In this document: piece by piece, positions 238 to 42,396 of the stretch
How the letters are laid out: the number at the start of each line of letters is the position of its first letter
Numbering within the stretch: the first letter of the stretch is position 1
Assembly: GCA_018831025.1 (NCBI GenBank)
Contig: JAHJRB010000059.1
Span: 1-43,812 of the forward strand
Direction: 5' to 3'
DNA length: 43,812 nucleotides
Source: Nanobdellota archaeon
GTDB taxonomy: Archaea > Nanobdellota > Nanobdellia > SCGC-AAA011-G17 > ARS1403
Notes under the pieces: generated by a model
Told to the model about the DNA's origin: nothing
What the model saw: the letters and a program-made list of their open reading frames with translations, nothing else
The model's database searches: none
Position numbers and translations under genes: made by a program

Positions 238-789
238 TATTCTAATTTGAAACTGTGCTAAAGGATATATTTTTTTCAGTTCTTTTTTCATTATACTTTG
301 CACTTTAAATCTAATAATATCCTGGAAAAAAGCTTCATAATCTGACCTTTTTAAAAAATCTGCCAATAATTCCTGGGATTTTTTTCTTAAAGCTGTAAGA
401 ATTGATCTATTTGCTGCAGATTTTGTTACTATAAATGGTTTTACTCTTACATTAACTCCGTCTCTTGATTTTAATTTGAAAGAATCATCAATTTTTTCTT
501 TTCCCTTATGAACCATTCTTTTCAAAGAACCAGAAGCAATTTCATATTTAACAAGTTCTGTTAATGCTCTATTATCTTTTATCTCTTTAATTTTGAAAGT
601 TACTTTAACGTTTTGAGATTTTGAATCATTCATTAAAAGTCCAAGATTATAAGAAACATTTCTGCCAATTAAAGTAGATGGTTGTGCAATGAAGGTTTCT
701 CCTACTTCTACATTATTAAAATGACTAGTAGAAACTATAGGAAACCATATTTTTTTCTTAACTTTTAATTGTGCTTTTTCTTTTGCCAT
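202..789 (-). CDS. rps3ae: 30S ribosomal protein S3Ae (eS1)
   Basis: 195-aa ORF. The N-terminus MAKEK..KKKIWFPIVSTSHF and the overall profile match archaeal S3Ae. It lies in an S3Ae / RecJ-like / S15 cluster. Confidence 0.9.
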   Translation of the reverse strand: MAKEKAQLKVKKKIWFPIVSTSHFNNVEVGETFIAQPSTLIGRNVSYNLGLLMNDSKSQNVKVTFKIKEIKDNRALTELVKYEIASGSLKRMVHKGKEKIDDSFKLKSRDGVNVRVKPFIVTKSAANRSILTALRKKSQELLADFLKRSDYEAFFQDIIRFKVQSIMKKELKKIYPLAQFQIRILEKLASQNTHS

Positions 790-5859: not shown

Positions 5860-6414
5860 ATGTTAGAACTAAGAAGACAAGGGTTTCATGCGTTATTGGG
5901 ATTATTTTTAGTTATTTTACTTAATTTTAATTTAATTAATTTAAAAATATTAATTATAGTTTTTATTTTAGGAATTTTAACTTCTATCTTATCTAAAAAA
6001 TATAAAATAAAAGGGATTGAATGGTTTTTAAAGAATTTCGACCGAGAGGTTAATGTAAGGGGAATGGGGATAATAACTTATTTTATCGGTGTTATTTTAG
6101 CTTTGTTTTTATTTGAGAAAAGAATTGCTTTAGCTAGCATAATTATATTAGCATTTGGGGATAGTTTTTGTCATTTAGGAAGATTTGGAAGTTTGAAAAA
6201 TCCTTTTAATGATTTGAAATATATTGAAGGAATATTAATTGGGATTGCTGTAAGCACTTTTGGGGCTGTTTTTTTTGTTAGTTTTTTACAGGCATTGCTT
6301 GGAAGTAGTATTGCGATGATTTTTGAAAGTTTGGATGTTAAAATTAAAGGTAAAAAAATAGATGATAATATTTTAGTTCCTGTAATAGCTGGAATTGTAA
6401 TGAGTTTATTGTAA
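5860..6414 (+). CDS. polytopic membrane protein, dolichol/polyprenol kinase-like (CTP_transf_1-like)
   Basis: 184 aa with about 5-6 TM segments. FGDSFCHLGRFGSLKNPFNDLKYIEG resembles the GD..(x)..G...K..EG C-terminal motif of dolichol kinase / CDS-family enzymes (from memory). Confidence 0.4.
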   Translation: MLELRRQGFHALLGLFLVILLNFNLINLKILIIVFILGILTSILSKKYKIKGIEWFLKNFDREVNVRGMGIITYFIGVILALFLFEKRIALASIIILAFGDSFCHLGRFGSLKNPFNDLKYIEGILIGIAVSTFGAVFFVSFLQALLGSSIAMIFESLDVKIKGKKIDDNILVPVIAGIVMSLL

Positions 6415-6951
6415 AAGAAATTTTAATATTAATGAGTCTACTAAGTTTTGTATTTCTAAGTCATTTCCTTGGATATGTAAACAATTATTTTCATAAGTAA
6501 GTGAAGATTTTTCTGCCAGATTAATCTGGATTATTTTATCTGTAGCGGATGCGTCCTTGCATGTTTTTAATGGTAATTGAGAACATTGTTCAGAATCTTT
6601 AATGCAGGAAATTATAAAACTCTTTAATTTTGGTCTGATGTTAATATCGAAGTAATATAAAGCTTGAAGGTTTTCTTCTGGGTTAAAGGTAAAGTAAATT
6701 TTACTTGCGGAATTTATCTCCTGTAATGAAATTGGTTGAATAATTAAATTAAGGCTTTCAGGATTTTGAGAGATTAATATTGGTTGATTATCCTTGTATG
6801 CAGTCCATCCTTGGTCTGTTTGTTGGAAATTATAACCATTAAATTTAACTTTTGAAATGTTTTCTGTTTGCGTAGAATTTAATGAGAATCCTATAATACT
6901 GAGTATCATTAAGGATGCTAGGAACAATGGCAATATTATTTTTGTGTTCAT
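6406..6951 (-). CDS. membrane-anchored/secreted hypothetical protein
   Basis: The ORF track gives 6406..6990, but its first 13 codons run into the tRNA-Gln gene. ATG at 6949-6951 gives MNTKIILPLFLASLMILSIIG..., an N-terminal anchor. Confidence 0.5.
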   Translation of the reverse strand: MNTKIILPLFLASLMILSIIGFSLNSTQTENISKVKFNGYNFQQTDQGWTAYKDNQPILISQNPESLNLIIQPISLQEINSASKIYFTFNPEENLQALYYFDINIRPKLKSFIISCIKDSEQCSQLPLKTCKDASATDKIIQINLAEKSSLTYENNCLHIQGNDLEIQNLVDSLILKFLLQ

Positions 6952-6959
6952 TTTGAAAT

Positions 6960-7072
6960 TAGCCCCGCCAGGATTCGAACCTGGGTCCATAGCTAACCTC
7001 TGTTATAAACATCCAAAGGCTATGATGCTTGGCCGTTGTGCCTTGATTTAAACAAGTCTACACCACGGGGCT
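6960..7072 (-). tRNA. tRNA-Gln(UUG) with two BHB introns (D-loop and 37/38)
   Basis: The RNA sense reads AGCCCCG TG GTGT AG[22-nt intron]CGGCCAA GCAT C ATAGC CTTTGG[18-nt intron]A GCTAT GGAC CCAGG TTCGAAT CCTGG CGGGGCT A. Acceptor stem is 7/7 bp and the T-loop is TTCGAAT. Introns are at 7036-7057 and 6995-7012 on the plus strand. Each sits in a 4-bp helix flanked by 3-nt bulges (GTGT/GCAC with AGA and AAC; CTTT/GAGG with GGA and TTA). 72 nt of exon plus 40 nt of intron equals the 112 nt observed, and the discriminator A follows. No CCA is encoded. Confidence 0.85.
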
Positions 7073-24591: not shown

Positions 24592-25377
24592 TTAGTATTG
24601 ATTTAGAGATTTTTGTCTTAGTGTAACTGACTTAGATAAAGGGTTTATCATTAATCCGTCTTTTGCTGCTAAGGTTTGGATTTCTGTTTCTTTTTGTATT
24701 AACCTAGCTTCATATAATGGATTAGCTTCTAACATTTTAGTTGAGAAATGTGTTATTATTGCTAAACTCGGTTTTATTTCTTTTAGAATTTTTATTGTGT
24801 CGTTTGTTGTTAAATTATCCGTGTCTTTTTTTATTATCTGGGGGAAGACATTATTTAATATTAATATATCTGAGTTTTTATATTGCGGAATTAAATCTTT
24901 TGAGAATGCTGTATCTGAGGTGTAAGATATGGTTAAATCCGGAGTAGTAAATTTTAAACCTACTGCAGTAGAATCGTTATGTTTTGTTTGTAAAGTTCGT
25001 ACTGTAACTTCATCAAAATCTTTTGTTTGTTTTGGTCCTAATGAAAAAAATTCATTTAGATAATGTTTTAGAAATTTTTCCTGAGACAATGAATGGGAAA
25101 TTAGTAATGTTCCTGTTTTGTCCAACCCCGCATAAGTCATTGCGTTTATTACTGCATTTACATCATGAAAGTGGTTTAAATGAGCATGGGTTGAGATAAC
25201 AACATTGTTTTCTTTTAGATTAATACTTGCTTCTCTTGCTGAAACTAAAGCTCCGGGTCCTGGGTCTATATGAAATTGTTTATCATTAAATTTTAAGATG
25301 ATTCCTCCTGCAGATCTTAGTTGCTGATAAGAGGCATTATTACCTGCAGTTCCTAAAAATACTATTTTATAGTTCAT
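24592..25377 (-). CDS. metallo-beta-lactamase-fold hydrolase
   Basis: 261 aa. ISTHAHLNHFHD is an HxHxDH-type motif with N in place of D. Later H/D residues are consistent with an MBL fold. Confidence 0.65.
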   Translation of the reverse strand: MNYKIVFLGTAGNNASYQQLRSAGGIILKFNDKQFHIDPGPGALVSAREASINLKENNVVISTHAHLNHFHDVNAVINAMTYAGLDKTGTLLISHSLSQEKFLKHYLNEFFSLGPKQTKDFDEVTVRTLQTKHNDSTAVGLKFTTPDLTISYTSDTAFSKDLIPQYKNSDILILNNVFPQIIKKDTDNLTTNDTIKILKEIKPSLAIITHFSTKMLEANPLYEARLIQKETEIQTLAAKDGLMINPLSKSVTLRQKSLNQY

Positions 25378-25484
25378 GTACTCTTTAAATATATTAGATT
25401 CTTATAAGGATTATGATGGTAGAATTCATATATAGAAATATTTAAATAAAGACTTTTTGTAATCTTACTAAGGTTGAGCACAAT

Positions 25485-25681
25485 GGGGATTTTAAAGTTT
25501 AATACTTTGAGACCATATACGTAGCTCAGCCTGAACTTTGAAAAAAGTGGCTAAGGAGAGCACTAGACACAGCTTCAGATGCAAGCTTGAGTGATACTGA
25601 AGTCTCAGGCAGAAATCTAGGTGTCCGGAGAAAAGATAAATTAAAGAAAATCTTTCCGGGATTCAAATCTCCGCGTCCCCA
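25485..25681 (+). tRNA. tRNA-Phe(GAA) interrupted by five BHB introns
   Basis: Exons join to GGGGACG TA GCTC AGCCTGGGA GAGC A CTAGA CTGAAGA TCTAG GTGTC CGGAG TTCAAAT CTCCG CGTCCCC A (74 nt). All stems are Watson-Crick, with G18G19G20, U33, G37, G53:C61 and A73 in place. Introns are 25489-25518 (30 nt, position 4/5), 25534-25554 (21 nt, D-loop 18/19), 25567-25595 (29 nt, 30/31), 25603-25614 (12 nt, 37/38) and 25631-25661 (31 nt, 53/54). 74 + 123 = 197 nt, exactly the observed span. Each junction sits in a 4-bp helix flanked by two 3-nt bulges (details in findings). A TATA-like TTTAAATAAA lies at 25441-25450. Confidence 0.85.
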
Positions 25682-26438
25682 ATTTTAATTTAATAGGAGG
25701 TCTCCCTATTTTTTTAGAAATATTCCCACTATCCAAATATTCTTTATATTTATTTAAATGCCTATTATTCCTAAAACCAATAAAATCCATCCACATTTCT
25801 AAATTCTTTCTTCCACTTAATGTTAACCTAAATTCTATTCCTGTGTTATTTGTTCTTTTATCAAAATGTTTGTCTTTCCTTATATATACTAAAAATCCTT
25901 TTTTATTCAACCAAGACCCTATAATGTGTACTAATTCTTTGGACACTGAAGTTAATCCTATTTTAGGATAAATGGGATATATTTTTCTATTTTTATATAG
26001 CATTAATGAAAAATCTGTATCTGCAACACCTTGTATAAAAGGTATCATGAAATCATTATTGTTAGTAATCCATCTAGGGATTTTAATATTTTTACTTTTA
26101 TGTTTATAATAACCGACATATTTTAAAAAGTTTATTAATCCTTTTGAGGTAATGTAAATTTCTGCATATTTTGCTCTCTTTCTTTTATTTGCCCTTGTAT
26201 CTAAATTAAATAATTTTTTAATTAAGTTTTTAATATGTTTATTAAGATAATCATAATCATATCTAGAATCCCCAGATATAGAGATTACATTTCTATTTGT
26301 ATTAAAACTAACATAACCATCCCCAGCTAATATTCCAATAAATTCAGCTAATTCTTCTGAGGGTTGTTTAGGCAAATGTAAATTTCTCTGTTTATCATAA
26401 TGGCTTAATTTTATTCTTGATAAATCAAACGTTTCCAT
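25641..26438 (-). CDS. free-standing double-motif LAGLIDADG homing endonuclease
   Basis: 265 aa. Two LAGLIDADG motifs (LAEFIGILAGDGYVS and FIQGVADTDFSL). The last 13 codons (...GTRRFESRKDFL*) are antisense to tRNA-Phe (overlap 25641-25681). TATA TTTTAAATAAAATA lies ~25 nt upstream of the ATG, suggesting a near-leaderless transcript. Confidence 0.85.
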   Translation of the reverse strand: METFDLSRIKLSHYDKQRNLHLPKQPSEELAEFIGILAGDGYVSFNTNRNVISISGDSRYDYDYLNKHIKNLIKKLFNLDTRANKRKRAKYAEIYITSKGLINFLKYVGYYKHKSKNIKIPRWITNNNDFMIPFIQGVADTDFSLMLYKNRKIYPIYPKIGLTSVSKELVHIIGSWLNKKGFLVYIRKDKHFDKRTNNTGIEFRLTLSGRKNLEMWMDFIGFRNNRHLNKYKEYLDSGNISKKIGRPPIKLKLGTRRFESRKDFL

Positions 26439-26456: not shown

Positions 26457-26505
26457 TTTATTTAAAAGCGCTACGGGGGTATGGCGGATGAGTCGGATAA
26501 GATTT
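26457..26505 (-). promoter_or_regulatory. conserved GC-rich element + TATA box, copy B
   Basis: The minus strand reads AATCTTATCCGACTCATCCGCCATACCCCCGTAGCGCTTTTAAATAAAAT. It matches copy A (20657-20703) except for a 3-nt indel and a few substitutions. It directly precedes the LAGLIDADG gene. Confidence 0.45.
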
Positions 26506-29490: not shown

Positions 29491-29503
29491 ATTGGGGGGG
29501 AAA

Positions 29504-32500
29504 ATGCAAACAGGAGAAGCTAGACTAAAAGTAATGGAAGCTTTGCAAGAGGAAGCTTACAAAGGTATAGTCAGAATAGATAGTGGGACTATGGGTCATA
29601 TTAAAGTAAGACCTGGCGATATTGTTGAAATAGAGGGAAATAGAAAAACTGTTGCAATTGTTGATAGAGCTTACCCTAGTGATGTTGGTCAAGAAGTTAT
29701 TAGAATGGATGGTATTGTAAGAAGAAATGCTAAAACTGGAATTGGAGAGGTTGTAAATGTCAGAACTGCAGAAGTTAAAGAGGCTAAAAGCGTTACAGTT
29801 GCTCCTGCTCAACAAGGTGTTATGATCCAAGCACATCCTGATGTTTTTAAAAGAGGATTATTGGGAAGGGCTATGATTAAGGGGGATATAGTTGCATTAG
29901 GTGGAACTAACAGAAGGAAGAGAACATTGAGTGATAGTCCACTATTTGATGAAATCTTTAATGTTTTTGGAGAAGACTTTATGGGTAATTTCGGGCTTAG
30001 TTCACTTAAATTCATAGTTGTCGATACTAATCCAAAAGAAGCTGTAATTATTAGTGATGGTACAGAGATTAAAGTAAATCCAAAAGCTATGGAGGTTATT
30101 GAAGAAAATATTCCTGAAGTAAATTATGAAGATATTGGTGGATTAAGTGATGAGATTATAAAAATAAGAGAAATGGTAGAGTTGCCGTTAAGACATCCTG
30201 AGATATTTAAAAAATTAGGTATTGAACCGCCTGCAGGAGTGCTATTACATGGTCCGCCGGGAACTGGTAAAACTCTACTAGCTAAAGCGGTTGCTAATGA
30301 ATCAGAGGCTAATTTTATTTTAATTAATGGACCCGAGATTATGAATAAATTTTATGGTGAATGTGTTGATGAAAATTCTTTAGTATTTACTAATGGAATT
30401 GGTTTGACTCCTATAAACGAAGCGATTCAAAATTCTGATGTTCATAATATAGCTGCACTGGACTTTGAAAATCAAAAAACAAGTATGTTGCCTATATCTG
30501 ATAGATTTGATAAAGGCGTACAAAATACTTTAACTGTTAAAACACCCCATGGTAGTATAACTACAACTCCAACTTCAAGGCTATTAGTTTTAAGAAATGG
30601 AGAGCCAGAATGGGTTTTTGTTAAAGACTTAAAAAAGAATGATTTTGTAGCTACTTCAAAAAATATGCCTCGGGGAAAAGAAGAAATTCCTATTTTGATT
30701 AATTTTTTAAAAAATAATAATTATTTGCAAGGAGATAAAGTTAGAAAAATATTTGACTTATACAATGGATATGGAAAAAATAAAGAAACTGCAGAAATAC
30801 TGGGAATAAAACAAAGAAGATTAGAAGATTTGAAATATAGGAAATCTGTTCCAGTTAAAATCATAAAAAAGTTAATTGAAGGGAAAGAAGATCTTATTGA
30901 AGGAGATTTTAATTTAATGGGTAAAGGAAAAATCCCTTTTAGATTTAATTCCGAAATAGCTTATTTAATAGGATTAATAATTGGTGATGGACATCTTAGA
31001 TATACCTATAAAAATAAACATGTAACTACCATTCATTTTACAAATGATGATAAAAAAGTAGTTGAAAAATATAAAAAAAATATGAATGATGTTTTTGGAA
31101 TTAAAGATATTAAATATGACGGCAAATATGGATATTATTTTTCTTCTTCAATTATAGGAACTTTATTACATAAGCTTGGAATTCCTTATAGCGATAAATC
31201 TCATAATGCTATTATTCCTAATTATGTTTTAAATTTACCAGATGAAATGCTTAAAGAATTTATTAAAGGACTTTTTGATAGTGATGGGGAAGTACATTTT
31301 GTAAAAAGTGGAAGACAAATAATTCATTATACTATGAGTGAAAAACTTAATATTGGTTTGAGATTGGCACTTCTAAGATTTAATATTCAAACAACATTGG
31401 GAAGGAAAAAAGATGGGACTTATATACTAACGATTAGTGATGTGAATTCAATTGACAGATTTAGAAAAGAAATAGGATTTAATCATATAAAAAGAAATAA
31501 AAGATTAAAGAAAGAAATAATTGTAAAATATAATAAACCTGTTTATGATAGAATTCCTGTTTATGATTTTTTAAAGAACATTGCTAAAGAATATAAGATA
31601 AGTAAAAGGGAATTTTTAAGAAATAAAATTAATTTATTTGCTGTAAAATCTTATACTGATAAACAAATTAAAAAAACCATAAGAATATTGAAAAGATATA
31701 AAGTTGATTATAAAGAAATAGAGAAATTAGAATTATTAAATAAAAATGACATTTTGTGGTCTCCTATCAAGGAAATTAATGAAGGAACGGCTCATGTATA
31801 TGATTTGACAGTTCCTAAGGATCATAATTTTATTGCTAATGGTTTTATTGTGCATAATTCTGAAAAAAGATTAAGAGAAGTTTTTGAAGAAGCTGAAAAA
31901 AATGCTCCTAGTATTATATTTATAGATGAGATTGATGCTATAGCTCCTAAAAGAGAGGAAGTTCATGGAGAATTAGAAAGAAGAGTTGTAGCGCAGATGC
32001 TTGCTCTTATGGATGGATTAAAAAATAGAGGCAGAGTTGTTGTTATTGCAGCAACTAACAGACCAAATGCTATTGATCCTGCTTTACGTAGACCTGGAAG
32101 ATTTGACAGAGAGATTAGTTTTGGAGTCCCTGATAAAAAAGGAAGATTGAATATTTTAAAGATTCATACTAGAAACATGCCGCTGGATAAAACTGTAAAC
32201 TTAAAAGATATATCTGCAATTACTCATGGTTTTGTTGGGGCTGATTTAAATGCATTGGCGAAAGAAGCAGCTATGAATGTACTTAGAAGACTATTACCTG
32301 ATTTTACATTGAGAGAAAAAGATCCAATACCTAAGGAACTACTAGATAAACTCGTTATAACTGGGACTGACTTTAAAGAATCTTTGAAGATTGTAAGGCC
32401 TAGTGCAATGAGAGAAGTTTTAGTTGAGATACCTAATGTAAAATGGGAAAACGTTGGTGGATTAGAAAGTACTAAGCAAGAATTAAAAGAAGCTGTTGAA

Positions 32501-33436
32501 TGGCCATTAAAATATCCTTCAAGTTTTAAAAGATTAGGGATTAAACCACCTAGGGGGATATTACTATATGGTCCGCCGGGAACTGGTAAAACTATGCTAG
32601 CTAAAGCTGTTGCTAATGAATCAGAGGCTAATTTTATTTTAGTAAAAGGTCCAGAGTTGTTGAATAAATTTGTTGGTGAGAGTGAAAAAGGTGTTAGAAA
32701 AGTATTTGAAAAAGCAAGACAAACTGCTCCAACTATTGTATTCTTTGATGAGATTGATTCTATAGCTCCTAGAAGAGGGACTGACTCAAGTAAAGTAACT
32801 GAAAGAATTGTTAATACTATGTTAAGCGAGATGGATGGATTAGAGGAAATGCATGATGTAATTGTGCTTGCTGCTACTAACAGACCCGATATGGTGGATA
32901 GTGCATTATTAAGACCTGGAAGATTTGACAGAACTTTAATGATACCTGTGCCTGATGAAGAATCTAGATTAGAGATTTTAAAGATACATACTAAAGATAT
33001 GCCTTTGGAAATAAATAAAGAAATAATAAAAGAACTAGGGAAAAAATATGATGATAATTATATTTATGAAGAAAGCAAAATCCTCTCAAAAATGGCGGGG
33101 GATGAACCAATAAAATCTGAAAATATAAAAAAGAAGAAAATTAAATTTAAAGAATTGAATGATAGGGAAAAAATATTGTATTATATTTCAAAGGACCTTA
33201 ATAATTTTACTGGTGCTGATATTGAAAACTTATGTAGAGAAGCAGCGATTTTAGCTTTGAGAGAAAATATTAAGGCGGATAAAGTTAGGGTAGAACATTT
33301 TGAAGAAATTATGAAAAAAGTAAAACCAAGTATAACTGAAAACGATTTAGAGACTTATAAAAGAATTGAAGAAGAATATTTGAAGACTGCTAGAGGTGCT
33401 GCAATTAAGAAGGAGGCACCTACTTATTTTGGTTAA
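29504..33436 (+). CDS. cdc48: AAA+ ATPase Cdc48/VCP (CdcD), intein-containing
   Basis: N-domain followed by D1 and D2 AAA modules (two GPPGTGKT Walker A motifs, two DEID Walker B motifs, SRH regions). ATG at 29504 is preferred over the TTG at 29492 in the track. One intein lies in D1 (separate feature), and a ~60-aa K/E-rich insertion lies in the D2 lid region. Confidence 0.9.
30249..30322 (+). repeat. 74-nt segment near-identical to 32568-32641 (Walker A region of D1 vs D2)
   Basis: By hand alignment there are 3 mismatches in 74 nt (atggtccgccgggaactggtaaaact...gaatcagaggctaattttatttta). Flanking D1/D2 codons are much more diverged. Confidence 0.8.
30362..31858 (+). mobile_element. Cdc48 intein with LAGLIDADG homing endonuclease domain (499 aa)
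   Basis: It interrupts the conserved [11 protein letters not shown]|SEKRLREVF. It starts with Cys ([10 protein letters not shown]) and ends ...FIVHN followed by Ser+1. Endonuclease motifs are [11 protein letters not shown] and [12 protein letters not shown]. Confidence 0.85.
32568..32641 (+). repeat. second copy of the 74-nt Walker A segment (D2)
   Basis: See 30249-30322. Confidence 0.8.
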
Positions 33437-34361: not shown

Positions 34362-37300
34362 ATGAAAGGCTTTATTTTATATCCTACATATAGGGTAATT
34401 GATGGAAAAAGTTATGTTTGGTTGTTTGGAAAATTAGAAAATGGAGAGAGTTTTCTAACTATGAATAAATATGAACCTTATTTTTATATTAGAACAAAAG
34501 ATAGTAAGAAACTTTTAAAAAAAGATTCACCAAAAGACTATGAGATTGAAGATACTAATTTTAAGAATTTTAAAGGTGAAAAATTAAGCAGGGTAAAGCT
34601 AGAATTGCCTAAAGAAGTTCCAAAGGTAAGAAGAGAGTTAGAGGATGATAATGTTGTTTGTTATGAGGCTGATGTTAGATTTGCTCAAAGATATTTAATT
34701 GATAAAAATATTATGATGGGAATTGAGATAGATGGAGAGTATGAAATTGGAGAATTTGTTGATAAAATTTATCATGAGCCAAGCATTACTCCATGTGATG
34801 ATTTTTTTCCTAATTTGAAGGTTTTTTCTATTGATATTGAAACAAATAGAGATGCTAAGAAATTGTATAGCATTGCTGTTTATTCTGAAGGTTTTGAGAA
34901 AGTTTTAATGGGAGAAGAAGAGGATATGTTAGAAGAGTTTAAAAAAATAATAATTGATGAGGATCCAGATATTTTAACAGGATGGAATTTTATTGATTTT
35001 GATTTAGATATTTTAAAGAAAAAATTTAAACAGCATAAGATACCATTTATATTAGGAAGAATAAATCAAGCTTGCAGGCTAAAATTAGAAAGCAATTTCT
35101 TTAGAGACAGTAAAGCAGATTTTCCTGGTAGAATTGTGCTTGATGGTATAAGTCTGCTGAGGATGAGCTTTGTTAAGTTACCTAGTTTTAAATTAGGTGA
35201 TGTTGCTTATCAAATTCTAAAAGAAAAAAAATTAATTGGGGATAAAAATAAAGTTGCGGAAATTGAAAGATTGTTTAAAGAAGATAAGAAAAAATTAAAA
35301 GAGTATAATCTAAAAGATGCTAAATTAGTTTATGATATTTTAAAAAAAATTAAAGCTGTTGAGATGGTTATTGAAAAAAGTTTTTTAACTGGAATGCCTC
35401 TTGACAGGGTAAATGCTTCAATAGCTTCTTTAGATTCATTATATTTAAGAGAATTGAAAAAAAGAGGTTACGCTGCGAATTCTGGGAGTTATAGTGTTAA
35501 GGAAGAAAGGATTAAAGGCGGGTATGTAATGGAATCTAAACCTGGAATTTATGATAATGTAATTATTTTAGATTTTAAAAGTGTTGACTACTCTGAACCT
35601 ATATATTTACTTGATAATTTGAATAATGTTAAAATTATTCCTATTGGAAAATTTGTAGATTCTTGTTTAAATAGTGGAAATAAAAAATATTTTAAAAATC
35701 TTGAAATTGGTATGGTTCCCGGTGATTGGAAGGTTCTTTGTTTTGATAAGGATTACAAAGTACGGTATTCAAAGATTAGTCAAGTTTCAAGGCACTATAA
35801 TAATGAGCCTCTTTACGAAATCATAACTATCTCTGGGAGAACGATAAAGATAACAAAATCCCACAGCCTTTTCAGTATAAATAATAATTTTAGGCCTATT
35901 CCTGTAAAGGGTTCTGAATTAAAAGAAGGTAGCTCTATAGTGATTCCTTTAAAGGCAAATCTTCCATTAGAAAATAATATAGAAAAAAATTTGAATCTTT
36001 TATCCCTATTAAGAAATATTCCTAAAGAAAAATTAAAAAATTTAGAATTGTGTATTGAATCTAAACATTGTTTATACAAATATAAAAGAAGAATTAAATA
36101 TCTTAAGGCAATATATCGTAGAAATGGAATTGCCCCTCAAAAATTGGAACAATCGCTCGGACTTAAAAAATTATGTGTTTATCCAGTAATTAGGAATTTA
36201 AGAAAAGAAGGGTTAATTTCTATTGATAAGGGAAAAATAAAACTCACCCTTGAAGGACTGTCTTATTATAAGAATTTATCAGTTATTTGTAAATCACATA
36301 AATATAATCCTGCAACAGGTTTATGTTCAATCGATTTCTTGAAATCTTTTAAACATATAAATAAAGAAGATAATTACTTTCTGAAGTGGAAGTTGGGATA
36401 TAAATATACTCCTTCTAATTCTAGGATTAAATTACTTCTCCCTCTAAAGCCTCTTTGTTCTTTATTGGGGTATTTTGCTGCTGAAGGGTGTTGTGTAAAA
36501 TCTAGGAAAAAAGATAGGATAAATCAAGACCACTATAAGGTAAATATTACTGCTAGAGATTTACATAAAAAAATAGTAAATGATTGTAAAAAATTAGGAT
36601 TAAGGGCATATAATAAAAAAGAAGGTTTTGTTACTTTTTCATCAAAATTAATGTATTTTTTATTCAAACATATGTTTAAGACAGGTGTAAATGCACATAA
36701 TAAGAAAGTTCCCTTCTTTATATTTAATCAAGAAAATAAACTCAAGAAAATATTTTTAAAAAGTTATTTTGAAGGAGATGGTCATTTATATTCTCATGCT
36801 CAGCAATTTGCAACTGCTAGTGAAGAATTAGTTAATGGCATTGCACTACTCAATATGGGGTTAGGAAATTTAGGATTTAAAATAGGAAAGTATAAATCGT
36901 ATTATCATTGTTTTATTAATAATGATATATTTTCTAATAGAAAATTGAAGAGGGTTAATTATGCTTTTAGAGTACCGAATAAAAATATACCCAAAGGTTT
37001 TTTTGAAAAAAATAAAAGAGAAAAATATAATAAAAGTATAAATGCTAAAAAATTGTGTTCTTGGTTGAATTCCCAAAATATTAAAAAACATATTTTTAAT
37101 GGACATTTGGGAATAGATACAATTAAAAAAATTAGAAAAATAAAACCAACAAAAAATTTTGTTTATGACATTGGAGTAAATCCTAATCAAAATTTTATAT
37201 GTGGTAGAGGAGGGATAGTTGCACATAATAGTTTGTATCCGAGTATGATGCAAACATTTAATATCGACCCGCTTAACTATGTTGAAGATTGTAAAGGGAA

Positions 37301-38279
37301 GAATTTAATTACTGCTCCTAATGGTGCTTGTTTTAAAAATAATAATGGAATTATGGGAGATATAATTACTAAATTATTAATTGCGAGAGATAAATCAAAA
37401 AAAGAAGGTAATGAATTACAAAGATGGGCTATTAAAATACTTCTAAATTCTTTCTTTGGAGTAATTGCTAATCCTAACTGTAGATTTTTTAATTTGAATA
37501 TTGCAAATGCAATTACACATTTTGGTCAAAAATTAATTAAATTAACTGCTGAGAAAGTTGAAGAAGAAGGTTATGAAGTAATTTATATGGACACAGATTC
37601 CTGCTTTATTTTAAGTAAAGTTGAAAGTTTAAAAGAAGCTAATGAAATTGGAGAAAAATTAAATAAAAAATTGAATAGTTTTTTTAATAATTATGTTAAA
37701 AAAGAATATAATAGAGAAAGTAAATTAATTTTAGAATATGAAAAATGTTTTACTAGATTTTTAATGCCTAAGATTAGGGGTAGTGAAGAAGGCGCTAAAA
37801 AAAGATATGCCGGAGTGAATTCTAAGGGAAAGATTGAAGTAACTGGTATGGAATTTGCTAGATCAGATTGGACGGGGTTAGCTAAAAAGTTCCAATTGGA
37901 GTTATTAAAAAAAGTTTTTGAAAAAAAAGAAGTTAAAGGTTTTATTAAGAAATTTGTTGAAGGTATAAGAAAAGGAAAATATGATGAATTATTAATTTAT
38001 AGAAAAAATGTTAGGAAAGAATTGGAGATGTACACGAAAATCACCCCCCCTCACATTCGAGCGGCTCGCAAACTAAAAAATTTCCAAGGCAATGTTATTG
38101 AATATATTATGACTGAAGACGGTCCTGAGCCTATTGAAAATTTAAAAAATAAAATAGATTATGAACATTATATAGATAAACAAATAAAACCTATTGCCGA
38201 TAGTGTTTTAGTTTTCTTTGATCTTAGTTTTGATGAGTTATTGGAAGGGAGTACTCAAACGAACTTGAGTGGTTTTTAA
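34362..38279 (+). CDS. polB: family B DNA polymerase (PolB), intein-containing
   Basis: Exo motifs (FSIDIET, NFIDFDL), motif A split by the intein (ILDFK|SLYPSMM), KILLNSFFG and motif C YMDTDS. The extein is 755 aa. Confidence 0.9.
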   Translation: MKGFILYPTYRVIDGKSYVWLFGKLENGESFLTMNKYEPYFYIRTKDSKKLLKKDSPKDYEIEDTNFKNFKGEKLSRVKLELPKEVPKVRRELEDDNVVCYEADVRFAQRYLIDKNIMMGIEIDGEYEIGEFVDKIYHEPSITPCDDFFPNLKVFSIDIETNRDAKKLYSIAVYSEGFEKVLMGEEEDMLEEFKKIIIDEDPDILTGWNFIDFDLDILKKKFKQHKIPFILGRINQACRLKLESNFFRDSKADFPGRIVLDGISLLRMSFVKLPSFKLGDVAYQILKEKKLIGDKNKVAEIERLFKEDKKKLKEYNLKDAKLVYDILKKIKAVEMVIEKSFLTGMPLDRVNASIASLDSLYLRELKKRGYAANSGSYSVKEERIKGGYVMESKPGIYDNVIILDFKSVDYSEPIYLLDNLNNVKIIPIGKFVDSCLNSGNKKYFKNLEIGMVPGDWKVLCFDKDYKVRYSKISQVSRHYNNEPLYEIITISGRTIKITKSHSLFSINNNFRPIPVKGSELKEGSSIVIPLKANLPLENNIEKNLNLLSLLRNIPKEKLKNLELCIESKHCLYKYKRRIKYLKAIYRRNGIAPQKLEQSLGLKKLCVYPVIRNLRKEGLISIDKGKIKLTLEGLSYYKNLSVICKSHKYNPATGLCSIDFLKSFKHINKEDNYFLKWKLGYKYTPSNSRIKLLLPLKPLCSLLGYFAAEGCCVKSRKKDRINQDHYKVNITARDLHKKIVNDCKKLGLRAYNKKEGFVTFSSKLMYFLFKHMFKTGVNAHNKKVPFFIFNQENKLKKIFLKSYFEGDGHLYSHAQQFATASEELVNGIALLNMGLGNLGFKIGKYKSYYHCFINNDIFSNRKLKRVNYAFRVPNKNIPKGFFEKNKREKYNKSINAKKLCSWLNSQNIKKHIFNGHLGIDTIKKIRKIKPTKNFVYDIGVNPNQNFICGRGGIVAHNSLYPSMMQTFNIDPLNYVEDCKGKNLITAPNGACFKNNNGIMGDIITKLLIARDKSKKEGNELQRWAIKILLNSFFGVIANPNCRFFNLNIANAITHFGQKLIKLTAEKVEEEGYEVIYMDTDSCFILSKVESLKEANEIGEKLNKKLNSFFNNYVKKEYNRESKLILEYEKCFTRFLMPKIRGSEEGAKKRYAGVNSKGKIEVTGMEFARSDWTGLAKKFQLELLKKVFEKKEVKGFIKKFVEGIRKGKYDELLIYRKNVRKELEMYTKITPPHIRAARKLKNFQGNVIEYIMTEDGPEPIENLKNKIDYEHYIDKQIKPIADSVLVFFDLSFDELLEGSTQTNLSGF
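35580..37229 (+). mobile_element. PolB intein (550 aa) in motif A, Ser-1 type, with LAGLIDADG endonuclease
   Basis: Inserted in DFK|SLYPS. It begins SVDYSEPIYLLD and ends GGIVAHN followed by Ser+1. Endonuclease motifs are LLGYFAAEGCC and FLKSYFEGDGHL. Confidence 0.85.
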
Positions 38280-41237: not shown

Positions 41238-42243
41238 ACTGCCAGGAATATTACCTGTGAAAACAATTTCATGGGAAGAATTAAAAGGGAAGAAGATTGG
41301 GATAGATTTTAGTAATTGTGCATATCAATTCTTAAGTTCTATAAGACAGAGAGATGGAACGCCGCTTATGGATTCTAAAGGTAGAGTAACCTCTCATTTA
41401 TCAGGTTTATTCTATAGATCCTCTAATTTAATACAAAAAGGATTGAAATTATGTTATATTTTTGATGGAAAGCCACCTTCTTTAAAGATTGTAACACAAG
41501 AAGAAAGAGAGCATAGGAAAAGGATAGCAGAAACAAGATTAGAGAAAGCTAGAGAGGAAGAAGATATAGAGGCTATGGGAAAATATAGTAAGCAGACTAC
41601 TAGAATGAGTAAAGAGATTGTTAAAGAAAGTAAGGAATTATTAAAAGCTATGGGGATTCCGATTATACAAAGTCCTAGTGAATCAGATGCACAGGGTTCT
41701 TTTATGGTTGAAAATGGAGATCTAGATTATTTTGCTTCTAGCGATCAAGATTGTTTATTGCATAATTGTCCTAGATTAATTCCCAATTTAACTTTATCTC
41801 AAACCAGGAAAGTTGGAGGAAGTTATGTTTATATTCAACCCCAAATTATTGAATTAGAAGATGTGCTTAATCATTTAGGGATAGATAGAGATAGATTAAT
41901 TGTTATGGGAATCCTCACGGGAACGGACTATAATCCAAAAGGAATTCCTGGGATTGGTCCAAAGAAAGCTCTTAATTTAGTTAAACAATTTAAGAAATTT
42001 GATACTTTATTCAAAAATGTTGAAGCTGATTTTAACTGGAAAAAGATTTATGCTATTTTTAAATCAATGCCTGTAATGAAAGAATATCAACTTAAATGGG
42101 ATAATGTAAATGAAAGTAAAATTAGAAAACTGCTTATTAAAGAACATGAATTTGGTGAAGAAAGAGTTGAGAAAGTTTTAGAAAAGTTAAAGAAAAAAGA
42201 TAAAAAGAAAGAACAGAAAGGATTGGGGGATTTTATAAAATAG
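41227..42243 (+). CDS. fen: flap endonuclease 1 (FEN1)
   Basis: 338 aa. XPG-N (MGVKL...IDFSNCAYQFL), XPG-I (SESDAQGSFM...SSDQDCLL), H3TH (GTDYNPKGIPGIGPKKA) and C-terminal PIP box QKGLGDFI. Confidence 0.9.
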   Translation: MGVKLPGILPVKTISWEELKGKKIGIDFSNCAYQFLSSIRQRDGTPLMDSKGRVTSHLSGLFYRSSNLIQKGLKLCYIFDGKPPSLKIVTQEEREHRKRIAETRLEKAREEEDIEAMGKYSKQTTRMSKEIVKESKELLKAMGIPIIQSPSESDAQGSFMVENGDLDYFASSDQDCLLHNCPRLIPNLTLSQTRKVGGSYVYIQPQIIELEDVLNHLGIDRDRLIVMGILTGTDYNPKGIPGIGPKKALNLVKQFKKFDTLFKNVEADFNWKKIYAIFKSMPVMKEYQLKWDNVNESKIRKLLIKEHEFGEERVEKVLEKLKKKDKKKEQKGLGDFIK

Positions 42244-42320
42244 GGCTAAGTCAAGTTATCTGTGTTAGCTAACATTAGTAGGGCTCAGGAATTTGGAATT
42301 TAGCTATCTGGAGGCTTGGG

Positions 42321-42326
42321 TTTTTT
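42321..42326 (+). terminator. oligo-T tract downstream of fen1
   Basis: GGGTTTTTTC follows a GC-richer stretch containing the inverted repeat TAGCTAA...TTAGCTA (42267-42306). This is archaeal-type T-run termination; the assignment is inference only. Confidence 0.3.
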
Positions 42327-42396
42327 CAAAACACAATTAAGTTGACTGTACCTAAAATAGAAAAGTTTAAATAGTATAATTTTAATTAGTATAACT

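What the first reader, a model, noticed from the sequence alone, without database searches (positions are those of the whole stretch)
25485..25681. tRNA-Phe(GAA) gene split by five bulge-helix-bulge introns
What the sequence shows: a 197-nt stretch contains every part of a tRNA-Phe, but in six pieces.
- Joining the pieces gives GGGGACGTAGCTCAGCCTGGGAGAGCACTAGACTGAAGATCTAGGTGTCCGGAGTTCAAATCTCCGCGTCCCCA (74 nt).
- That sequence has a 7/7 acceptor stem, GCTC/GAGC D-stem, D-loop AGCCTGGGA, CTAGA/TCTAG anticodon stem, loop CUGAAGA, CGGAG/CTCCG T-stem, T-loop TTCAAAT and discriminator A73.
- The five inserts (30+21+29+12+31 = 123 nt) plus 74 nt account exactly for the 197 nt.

Every insert sits in BHB geometry: a 4-bp central helix, two 3-nt bulges, and the junction after the second bulge nucleotide.
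- I1: ATGG(25483-86)/CCAT(25513-16), bulges GGA and ATA, 9-bp inner helix.
- I2: AGCC(25528-31)/GGCT(25549-52), bulges TGA and AAG, inner helix ACTTT-GAAA-AAAGT.
- I3: CACT(25561-64)/AGTG(25590-93), bulges AGA and ATA.
- I4: CTGA(25597-600)/GCAG(25609-12), which is 3 Watson-Crick pairs plus A.G; bulges AGT and AAA; canonical 37/38 site.
- I5: CCGG(25625-28)/CCGG(25656-59), bulges AGA and GAT, inner helix AAAGAT/ATCTTT.

Established knowledge: archaeal splicing endonuclease recognises BHB motifs, and non-canonical intron positions are known in Thermoproteales and some DPANN. As far as I remember, three introns per tRNA gene is the maximum described, so five, including ones in the acceptor stem and T-arm, would be exceptional.
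Basis: partly seen in the sequence, partly recalled or inferred. Interest (0 to 1): 0.92.

Follow-up and report, generated by a model that had tools for sequence, protein, structure and literature searches.

The report
tRNA-Phe gene with five introns
A small uncultured archaeon (Woesearchaeota/Nanoarchaeota group) encodes its phenylalanine tRNA in six pieces separated by five short introns, two more than the published maximum of three, while close relatives carry the same gene at the same place with 0, 1, 3 or 4 introns.

Summary
Joining 25485-88, 25519-33, 25555-66, 25596-602, 25615-30 and 25662-81 gives a 74-nt tRNA-Phe(GAA) that ARAGORN accepts. ARAGORN and Rfam find nothing in the unspliced DNA.

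Four inserts sit in exact bulge-helix-bulge (BHB) geometry: a 4-bp Watson-Crick helix, two 3-nt bulges, and the cut after the second bulge base. The 12-nt insert at 37/38 is a relaxed bulge-helix-loop form. Shuffling the inserts puts the chance of this junction-exact placement at about 2e-12.

Comparative data decide the case. The same gene lies behind the same promoter box beside the same RNase Z-like gene in relatives, with these intron counts:
- 0 introns in L004-7 and L013 (Rfam tRNA 62-64 bits)
- 1 in L010
- 3 in L003 and L011
- 4 in L009
- 5 in the window

The spliced orthologues keep 100% cloverleaf pairing, with compensatory changes at 9 pairs, some spanning introns. That argues against a pseudogene.

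A second hidden gene, tRNA-Gln with two introns, lies at 7072-6960(-).

The mechanism is the known archaeal one (EndA cleavage, RtcB ligation), so this is an extreme member of a known kind. RNA evidence, the endonuclease gene and the rest of the genome could not be examined.

The parts
25432..25449 (+). Archaeal promoter box (ATAGAAATATTTAAATAA, TATA-like) of the tRNA-Phe gene
   Evidence: The block ATAGAAATAT(A)TTTAAA is conserved upstream of all 7 orthologous tRNA-Phe genes (alignment A2). That it acts as a TATA box is inferred from established archaeal promoter architecture.
25471..25479 (+). Extended 5' leader segment AGGTTGAGC that pairs with the D-arm GCTCAGCCT (25524-25532). Proposed outer helix and splint for the acceptor-stem intron.
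   Evidence: The 67-nt leader-to-exon 2 fold has MFE -24.7 kcal/mol, z = -5.6, with this 9-bp helix. The distance from promoter box to G1 is 35 nt here and 40 nt in L011, the two genes with an acceptor-stem intron, against 25-26 nt in the five without one. The L011 leader GAGCTGAG co-varies with its D-arm CTCAGCTC. The function is inferred.
25485..25488 (+). Exon 1 (GGGG, tRNA positions 1-4)
25489..25518 (+). Intron 1, 30 nt, acceptor stem 4/5. The central helix ATGG(25483-86)/CCAT(25513-16) uses 2 leader bases. Inner helix 9 bp.
   Evidence: The BHB is the local MFE. An intron at the same GG|A site, weakly similar in sequence, is present in L011.
25519..25533 (+). Exon 2 (positions 5-18)
25534..25554 (+). 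Intron 2, 21 nt, in the D-loop between G18 and G19. Strict hBHBh': AGCC/GGCT, inner 5 bp with a GAAA loop, outer 3 bp.
   Evidence: central-pair probability 0.9-1.0 in the local fold
25555..25566 (+). Exon 3 (positions 19-30)
25567..25595 (+). Intron 3, 29 nt, anticodon stem 30/31. Central helix CACT/AGTG, inner helix 2+5 bp.
   Evidence: Homologous to the 30/31 introns of L003, with which L010 groups. L009 has an intron at the same site.
25596..25602 (+). Exon 4, a 7-nt micro-exon ACTGAAG that carries the anticodon GAA (positions 31-37)
   Evidence: The same micro-exon is present in L003 and L009.
25603..25614 (+). Intron 4, 12 nt, canonical 37/38 site. Relaxed bulge-helix-loop form: CTGA/GCAG with 3 Watson-Crick pairs plus A.G.
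   Evidence: Its outer helix is the anticodon stem, which is contiguous only after intron 3 is removed. L003 and L009 have 14- and 13-nt introns at the same site.
25615..25630 (+). Exon 5 (positions 38-53)
25631..25661 (+). Intron 5, 31 nt, T-arm 53/54. Central helix CCGG/CCGG, inner helix 6 bp (HBh' type).
   Evidence: The central pairs have probability 0.89-0.95 even in the full primary transcript.
25662..25681 (+). Exon 6 (positions 54-73, ending in discriminator A73; CCA is not encoded)
25683..25691 (+). T-rich tract (TTTTAATTT) directly after the gene, a likely oligo-T terminator
   Evidence: Sequence. The function is inferred from established archaeal termination signals.

Best explanation
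This is the functional tRNA-Phe(GAA) gene of a Woesearchaeota/Nanoarchaeota-group archaeon, interrupted by five protein-spliced BHB introns at positions 4/5, 18/19, 30/31, 37/38 and 53/54.

Proposed pathway. Steps 1 and 5 and the enzyme assignments rest on established archaeal tRNA biology. The ordering is inference from structure.
1. Transcription starts about 14 nt upstream of G1, from a conserved TATA-like box.
2. The precursor folds locally so that each exon-intron pair presents two 3-nt bulges separated by a 4-bp helix.
3. The splicing endonuclease EndA cuts after the second base of each bulge, and RtcB joins the exons.
4. Removal must be at least partly sequential.
   - Intron 4's outer helix (the anticodon stem) exists only once intron 3 is out.
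   - The 7-nt anticodon micro-exon would be lost if introns 3 and 4 were cut at the same time.
   - The 4-nt exon 1 stays attached to an extended leader whose 9-bp pairing with the D-arm holds it in place. That helix overlaps intron 2's central helix, so I1 and I2 cannot be presented simultaneously.
5. RNase P and RNase Z trim the ends, and CCA is added.

The lineage is gaining and losing such introns quickly. One orthologous gene shows 0-5 introns at 8 sites among close relatives.
For: - Product: exact 74-nt tRNA-Phe after splicing.
- Motif: four perfect and one relaxed BHB at product-exact junctions, joint chance about 2e-12. The BHB is the local minimum-energy fold for I1, I2, I3 and I5.
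- Synteny: tRNA-Phe orthologues lie behind the same promoter box beside the same RNase Z-like and ValRS genes.
  - No intron: L004-7 and L013, Rfam tRNA 62-64 bits.
  - One intron: L010.
  - Three introns: L003 and L011.
  - Four introns: L009.
  - All spliced forms are accepted by ARAGORN.
- Selection on the spliced product: in six spliced or intron-less orthologues (L009 not included), 100% of cloverleaf cells pair and 9 of 21 pairs show changes on both sides. No shuffle of 500 reached the observed covariation score. This includes window-specific G4:C69, A5:U68, C6:G67 and A52:U62, whose partners lie on different exons.
- Shared ancestry: the 30/31 introns of the window, L003 and L010 are related in sequence.
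- Leader: its length and sequence co-vary with the presence of the acceptor-stem intron.
- Genome-wide habit: a second gene in the window, tRNA-Gln(UUG), has two BHB introns.
- Assembly: the locus is identical in two assemblies.
- Literature: DPANN archaea including Woesearchaeota have EndA with an extra loop, increased tRNA disruption and incomplete predicted tRNA sets (PMC5829648).
Against: - No RNA data, so splicing is inferred.
- EndA and RtcB are not in the window (Pfam), and the rest of the genome could not be read. The enzyme type and the absence of a second, uninterrupted tRNA-Phe are untested.
- In whole-precursor thermodynamic folding only I5's central helix is probable. I1 reaches 0.07, and I2, I3 and I4 are about 0. 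I2 rises to 0.9 once the others are removed.
- I4 has an A.G in its central helix, and its local MFE is a different hairpin.
- I1 and I5 lack a contiguous outer helix, so they are relaxed HBh' types that strict endonucleases cut poorly.
- BHB-like geometry is frequent by chance in this AT-rich DNA.
Confidence: 0.87

Rival explanations
1. It is a decaying tRNA-Phe pseudogene that has accumulated insertions. A different, intact tRNA-Phe gene elsewhere in the genome does the work.
For: The rest of the genome could not be searched. Some BHBs are relaxed (I4, and the D-loop insert of L009). Whole-precursor folding does not favour most BHBs.
Against: The exons carry no lesion: all 21 cloverleaf pairs and all conserved bases are intact. 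Window-specific compensatory double changes maintain pairs that span introns. Every insert is bounded so that excision is exact and sits in BHB register. The promoter box and T-tract are retained. The locus is the syntenic position of the only tRNA-Phe seen in the intron-less relatives. Small DPANN genomes usually carry single-copy tRNA genes (general knowledge).
Confidence: 0.06
2. The gene is real, but fewer than five inserts are removed by EndA. For example, the 12-nt insert 4 or the acceptor-stem insert 1 might be handled by another route or tolerated, or the exact junctions might differ.
For: I4 has only 3/4 central pairs, and its local MFE is another hairpin. I1's central helix needs leader bases and has probability of only about 0.07-0.37. 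Junctions I1 and I3 are ambiguous by one base at the sequence level.
Against: Leaving any insert in place destroys a stem or the 7-nt anticodon loop. Introns at the same 37/38 and GG|A sites recur in L003, L009 and L011 with the same register. No other RNA family or self-splicing intron signature was found, and inserts of 12-31 nt are far too short for group I or II introns.
Confidence: 0.05
3. It is an assembly artefact or a chance pattern over-read by the first reader.
For: The source is a metagenome assembly. BHB-like geometry is common in AT-rich DNA.
Against: The same sequence appears in two assemblies made with different assemblers. Related multi-intron versions appear in independent samples (L003, L009, L010, L011). 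Joint chance is about 2e-12. The covariation is significant.
Confidence: 0.02

Closest known systems
Multiple-intron tRNA genes of Thermoproteales (Pyrobaculum, Thermofilum, Caldivirga; Sugahara et al. 2007/2008, Fujishima et al. 2010, as summarised in PMC4033280 and PMC8450103)
   Same: Short BHB or relaxed-BHB introns at canonical and non-canonical positions, including acceptor stem, D-loop, anticodon stem, variable region and T-arm. There are several per gene, adjacent introns need ordered removal, and gain within a lineage is rapid.
   Different: The published maximum there is three introns per gene; here it is five, and four in L009. The host is a 29% GC DPANN archaeon from metagenomes rather than a hyperthermophilic crenarchaeon. 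No evidence was found here for repeated, transposed intron families. The expected endonuclease is a DPANN type, not the crenarchaeal (alpha-beta)2 with the CSL loop. That comes from the literature and was not tested.
Disrupted tRNA genes of DPANN archaea (Kaneta et al. 2018, PMC5829648; ARMAN-2 epsilon2 EndA, PMC3239211)
   Same: The same superphylum, and Woesearchaeota and Pacearchaeota genomes were included in that study. It reports multiple-intron tRNA genes, EndA with an L3 insertion, and incomplete tRNA sets attributed to undetected disrupted genes. The hidden genes found here fit that description.
   Different: That work does not describe genes with more than three introns. The orthologue series 0/1/3/4/5 and the leader to D-arm helix are not described there, as far as the passages read show.
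Nuclear tRNA genes of the red alga Cyanidioschyzon merolae (PMC3728597)
   Same: Ectopic and multiple BHB introns in the D-arm, at 37/38 and in the T-arm. Ordered removal was demonstrated by RT-PCR, with non-canonical introns removed before the canonical one.
   Different: It is a eukaryote, the maximum is three introns, and some genes are also permuted.
Split and tri-split tRNAs (Nanoarchaeum equitans, Caldivirga maquilingensis)
   Same: The tRNA is assembled from pieces through BHB-like junctions cut by EndA.
   Different: Those pieces are separate genes joined in trans. Here all six exons are colinear on one strand within 197 nt behind one promoter.

Membership tests
Archaeal tRNA gene with BHB (endonuclease-spliced) introns | Removing the inserts yields a canonical cloverleaf tRNA with the conserved bases | tested here: met
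   ARAGORN calls tRNA-Phe(gaa) on the 74-mer. It is 87% mean column identity to orthologues, two of which score 62-64 bits with Rfam tRNA. 100% of the stem positions pair across the aligned orthologues.
Archaeal tRNA gene with BHB (endonuclease-spliced) introns | Each exon-intron boundary lies in a 3-nt bulge, the two bulges are separated by a 4-bp helix, and the cut falls after the second bulge base | tested here: met
   I1, I2, I3 and I5 have 4/4 Watson-Crick central helices with the correct register. I4 has 3/4 plus A.G and is a relaxed bulge-helix-loop. Shuffle control gives about 2e-12. The BHB is the local MFE for four of the five.
Archaeal tRNA gene with BHB (endonuclease-spliced) introns | The host is an archaeon | tested here: met
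   Archaeal informational genes are in the window. NCBI labels it 'Nanoarchaeota archaeon'. The relative is 'Candidatus Woesearchaeota archaeon RIFOXYB1_FULL_31_12'.
Archaeal tRNA gene with BHB (endonuclease-spliced) introns | The genome encodes the splicing endonuclease EndA with broad specificity and the RtcB ligase | not testable with these tools
The literature says DPANN EndAs carry an L3 loop associated with disrupted tRNA genes.
Archaeal tRNA gene with BHB (endonuclease-spliced) introns | Mature spliced tRNA and excised (circular) introns are detectable in RNA | not testable with these tools
   No transcriptome data available.
tRNA pseudogene | Loss of stem pairing or conserved bases, and loss of selection on structure | tested here: not met
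   All stems are intact. Compensatory changes are specific to the window sequence.
Split or permuted tRNA gene | Pieces are encoded at separate loci or in permuted order | tested here: not met
   The six exons are colinear on one strand within 197 nt.
Self-splicing (group I/II) intron in tRNA | A catalytic RNA core of hundreds of nucleotides that matches Rfam intron models | tested here: not met
   The inserts are 12-31 nt. No Rfam match even at E<=10 in the locus.

The most novel reading that the evidence does not exclude
A mesophilic DPANN (Woesearchaeota-group) lineage is undergoing a burst of BHB-intron turnover independent of the one in Thermoproteales.
- One orthologous tRNA-Phe gene carries 0, 1, 3, 3, 4 or 5 introns at eight different sites among genomes whose neighbouring protein is 62-83% identical.
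- The five-intron and four-intron genes both exceed the published ceiling of three.
- The acceptor-stem intron depends on a co-evolving extended 5' leader that base-pairs with the D-arm. This leader-assisted BHB would tether a 4-nt first exon.
- A 7-nt anticodon micro-exon forces ordered splicing.

If so, these genomes offer snapshots before and after intron gain, which could reveal how BHB introns are acquired. A free-standing LAGLIDADG endonuclease gene that changes position around this tRNA may or may not be connected.
Probability: 0.4. Interest if true: 0.75.

Novelty: new member of a known kind. Interest (0 to 1): 0.62.

Why it matters
- It raises the documented upper limit of introns in a single tRNA gene from three to five. 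It also shows that a 74-nt RNA can be encoded with exons as short as 4 and 7 nt.
- It gives a concrete reason why tRNA sets look incomplete in DPANN genomes. Both tRNA genes in this window are invisible to ARAGORN and Rfam. This affects completeness estimates and claims of tRNA loss or split tRNAs in these lineages (compare the missing-tRNA discussion in bioRxiv 10.64898/2026.05.13.725050).
- The series of orthologues with 0-5 introns at a fixed locus is a natural experiment on how BHB introns are gained and lost, which is still an open question.
- It places strong demands on the substrate range of the DPANN endonuclease and on the order of splicing. Both are testable in vitro.

Tried and rejected
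- ARAGORN and Rfam on the raw DNA, at gathering and permissive thresholds, found nothing. This reflects detector blindness to multi-intron genes, not absence. Rfam also misses the 1-intron (L010) and a 3-intron (L003) orthologue and barely detects L011 at 29.5 bits.
- Whole-precursor thermodynamic folding was tried as a test of the BHBs. It supports only I5, plus I2 once the others are removed. I treat it as weak evidence because bulged motifs are penalised and are enzyme-stabilised. Local folds do recover four BHBs.
- A genome-wide BHB scan was tried as a specificity test. The motif is too common in AT-rich DNA to be informative alone.
- The search for repeated or transposed copies of the intron sequences in the window and the 15 loci found none. 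All-against-all intron comparison shows clear homology only among the 30/31 introns.
- The search for EndA and RtcB in the window found neither.
- My first exon boundaries for L003 intron 3 and L011 intron 2 gave no BHB and tRNAs of the wrong length. Corrected boundaries give perfect BHBs and 74-mers.
- L009's D-loop insert has no perfect BHB. The best is 3/4 at 14/15.
- L008 and L012 have no tRNA at the syntenic spot. L014 and L015 contigs are too short upstream. The P0004 contig had no retrievable DNA.
- The metagenome and genome scans with the neighbouring protein returned only the intron-less species.
- Literature searches for tRNA genes with four or more introns found nothing relevant.

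Full report
**1. What is there**

The window is a 29% GC contig of an uncultured archaeon. It encodes eRF1, ribosomal proteins S19e, L31e, S3Ae and S15, an archaeal histone, SRP54/FtsY, ValRS, and intein-containing Cdc48 and family-B DNA polymerase. The protein next to the finding is in NCBI as MBU2639713.1, 'MAG: hypothetical protein KKG75_03330 [Nanoarchaeota archaeon]'. The nearest named relative is 'Candidatus Woesearchaeota archaeon RIFOXYB1_FULL_31_12'.

ARAGORN calls that 74-mer tRNA-Phe(gaa) with a perfect cloverleaf. On the unspliced DNA, ARAGORN and Rfam at gathering and permissive thresholds report nothing.

**2. The inserts as BHB introns**

I applied the standard geometry. The 5' exon contributes a 4-nt strand, followed by a 3-nt bulge. 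The end of the intron contributes the complementary 4-nt strand, followed by a second 3-nt bulge. Cleavage falls after the second base of each bulge. The results are:

| Intron | Coordinates | Length | tRNA position | Central helix | Inner helix | Outer helix |
|---|---|---|---|---|---|---|
| I1 | 25489-25518 | 30 nt | 4/5 | ATGG/CCAT | 9 bp | none adjacent |
| I2 | 25534-25554 | 21 nt | 18/19 (D-loop) | AGCC/GGCT | 5 bp, GAAA loop | 3 bp |
| I3 | 25567-25595 | 29 nt | 30/31 | CACT/AGTG | 2+5 bp | 2 bp |
| I4 | 25603-25614 | 12 nt | 37/38 | CTGA/GCAG (3 WC + A.G) | loop only | anticodon stem |
| I5 | 25631-25661 | 31 nt | 53/54 | CCGG/CCGG | 6 bp | none adjacent |

The only adjustment is that I1 and I3 shift one base left under the cleavage rule, which does not change the product.
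- I4 is too short for an inner helix, so it is a bulge-helix-loop form.
- Shuffling the insert sequences gives a perfect central helix at a product-preserving junction in 0.06-0.9% of trials per intron. The joint estimate is about 2e-12.
- In local folds the BHB is the minimum-energy structure for I1, I2, I3 and I5.
- In the whole precursor only I5's helix is probable, and I2's becomes probable once the others are removed.
- BHB-like geometry as such is common in this AT-rich DNA. The motif alone would not be evidence.

**3. Comparative evidence**

This is the decisive part. The tRNA lies about 107 nt upstream of, and divergent from, an RNase Z-like MBL-fold gene that is followed by ValRS and eRF1. 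I fetched contigs that encode homologues of the MBL protein (62-83% identity). Seven distinct genomes, the window included, have a tRNA-Phe(GAA) at this locus behind the same conserved promoter box ATAGAAATAT(A)TTTAAA (alignment A2).

| Locus | Introns | Sites |
|---|---|---|
| L004-L007 (one species), L013 | 0 | none (Rfam tRNA 62-64 bits) |
| L010 | 1 | 30/31 |
| L003 | 3 | 30/31, 37/38, 46/47 |
| L011 | 3 | 3/4, 25/26, 46/47 |
| L009 | 4 | 14/15 (relaxed), 30/31, 37/38, 46/47 |
| window | 5 | 4/5, 18/19, 30/31, 37/38, 53/54 |

- All spliced forms are accepted as tRNA-Phe by ARAGORN.
- Of the 11 introns in L003, L009, L010 and L011, seven have four Watson-Crick central pairs. One more has four pairs including a G.U, and three have 3/4.
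- In an alignment of six spliced or intron-less orthologues (L009 was not included), 100% of the 126 stem cells pair. Nine of 21 pairs show changes on both sides, no shuffle of 500 reached the covariation score, and sliding the partners collapses pairing to 41-56%.
- The window sequence has its own compensatory pairs (G4:C69, A5:U68, C6:G67, A52:U62) whose two sides lie on different exons. That is what selection on the spliced RNA predicts, and a pseudogene would not show it.
- The 30/31 introns of L003 and L010 are clearly homologous (z = 5.5). The window's 30/31 intron is related to L003's more weakly (z = 2.9).
- On a neighbour-joining tree of the MBL protein, the intron-rich L011 groups with the intron-less L004 and L013. 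Gains and/or losses are therefore recent and repeated.

**4. Mechanism**

Established knowledge: archaeal EndA cuts BHB motifs, leaving 2',3'-cyclic phosphate and 5'-OH ends, and RtcB ligates them. RNase P, RNase Z and the CCA-adding enzyme finish the ends, and CCA is not encoded here.

Inferred from the anatomy:
- **I4 follows I3.** I4's outer helix is the anticodon stem, which I3 interrupts. Exon 4 is a 7-nt micro-exon (ACTGAAG, carrying the anticodon) that would be released if both neighbouring introns were cut at once. I3 is therefore probably removed and ligated before I4. A comparable order, in which the canonical intron is removed last, was shown experimentally in C. merolae (PMC3728597).
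- **I1 uses the leader.** Exon 1 is only 4 nt, and I1's central helix uses two leader bases, so I1 must be processed before RNase P trims the leader.
- **The leader co-varies with the acceptor-stem intron.** The two orthologues with this intron (window, L011) have leaders 10-15 nt longer than the five without it. The distance from promoter box to G1 is 35 and 40 nt against 25-26 nt. The extra leader is complementary to the D-arm: AGGTTGAGC 25471-79 pairs with GCTCAGCCT 25524-32. In L011, GAGCTGAG pairs with CTCAGCTC, so the leader follows the D-loop difference. The window's 67-nt fold has z = -5.6.
- **Proposed role of the leader helix.** I propose that it serves as the outer helix of the I1 BHB and tethers the leader-plus-GGGG fragment for ligation. 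It overlaps I2's central helix, so I1 and I2 cannot be presented at the same time.

**5. Rivals**

- **Pseudogene.** Contradicted by the intact structure, window-specific covariation, the retained promoter and T-tract, and the syntenic position. Without the rest of the genome, a second tRNA-Phe cannot be excluded.
- **Fewer true introns.** Leaving any insert in place destroys the tRNA, and the weakest one (I4) recurs at the same site in L003 and L009.
- **Artefact or chance.** Excluded by two assemblies with identical sequence, by related multi-intron genes in independent samples, and by the statistics.

**6. Comparison with what is known**

The kind is well known: multiple BHB introns in archaeal tRNA genes, best documented in Thermoproteales.
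- The stated ceiling is three introns per gene (PMC4033280; PMC8450103). The red alga C. merolae also reaches three.
- Kaneta et al. 2018 (PMC5829648) included Woesearchaeota and Pacearchaeota genomes. They reported increased tRNA disruption linked to an L3 loop in DPANN EndA, and suspected undetected disrupted genes.
- Full-text searches found no description of a tRNA gene with four or more introns. The searchable library is incomplete, so this is absence of evidence only.

I file the finding as an extreme new member of a known kind. Its features are five introns here and four in L009, eight sites in one orthologue group, and 4- and 7-nt exons.

**7. Support from the same window**

A scan for intact T-arms with matching acceptor strands found a second hidden gene on the minus strand, 7072-6960. 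It is tRNA-Gln(UUG) with a 22-nt D-loop intron (7057-7036; central helix GTGT/GCAC with one G.U) and an 18-nt intron at 37/38 (7012-6995). ARAGORN accepts the spliced 73-mer. Both tRNA genes I could find in the window are therefore multiply interrupted and invisible to the standard detectors.

**8. Limits**

There are no RNA data, no EndA or RtcB sequence and no whole-genome tRNA census. tRNAscan-SE and SPLITS were not available. The comparative set is seven genomes, and the species tree rests on one protein.

Noticed in passing
window 6960-7072 (- strand): A second hidden tRNA gene: tRNA-Gln(UUG). Its exons are 7072-7058, 7035-7013 and 6994-6960. It has a 22-nt D-loop intron (7057-7036) and an 18-nt intron at 37/38 (7012-6995). 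ARAGORN and Rfam miss it on the raw DNA, but ARAGORN accepts the spliced 73-mer. The listed ORF 6406-6990(-) starts inside its 3' exon.
   Followed up: yes
window 25641-26438 (- strand): A free-standing LAGLIDADG endonuclease ORF (265 aa) resembles the endonuclease domains of RFC, VMA and IF2 inteins. It converges on the tRNA: its last 13 codons are antisense to exon 6 and its stop codon lies inside intron 5.

A LAGLIDADG gene also sits at this locus in L010 (overlapping the tRNA 3' end), L009 (between the tRNA and the MBL gene), L008, L012 and the P0004 contig. It is absent in the intron-less L004-7 and L013. Whether this is linked to intron gain or merely reflects phylogeny is open.
   Followed up: partly
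window 26463-26499 (+), and L009 ~655-690, L010 ~625-660 (minus strands): A GC-rich island (GCGCTACGGGGGTATGGCGGATGAGTCGGAT) in otherwise 25% GC spacer, preceded by TTTATTTAAAA and followed by a T-run. It lies directly upstream of the LAGLIDADG start. Similar islands accompany the LAGLIDADG gene in L009 and L010. There is no Rfam match. It could be a small RNA or a structured 5' UTR; unexplained.
   Followed up: partly
window 29492-33436 (+) and 34362-38279 (+); L004 7956-8786: Cdc48 and family-B DNA polymerase each carry an intein with a LAGLIDADG domain. In the relative L004, Cdc48 is only 811 aa, which suggests it has no intein, while its eRF1 carries one. Intein content therefore also varies between these close relatives.
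   Followed up: no
window 24592-25377 (- strand): An MBL-fold protein with weak, sub-threshold RNase Z similarity (TIGR02651, 68 bits against a cutoff of 293; also Anti-Pycsar_Apyc1 Pfam hits). It is conserved divergently next to tRNA-Phe and upstream of ValRS in all relatives. JGI names homologues 'ribonuclease BN (tRNA processing enzyme)'.
   Followed up: no
L008 1378-1500 and L012 925-1049: Two relatives (a marine metagenome and GCA_001370115.1) have a divergently oriented LAGLIDADG gene directly upstream of the MBL gene and no tRNA-Phe in the fetched DNA. The spacer there carries a C/A-rich tract (…CCCGACACAGTCGACACACCCGTCAGACC…) not seen in the others.
   Followed up: no
window 42240-42335 (+): An intergenic stretch with locally raised GC that ends in GGAGGCTTGGGTTTTTT, a stem followed by a T-run. 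It lies between the FEN1-like gene and an ATPase gene. It may be a small RNA or a terminator and was not examined further.
   Followed up: no
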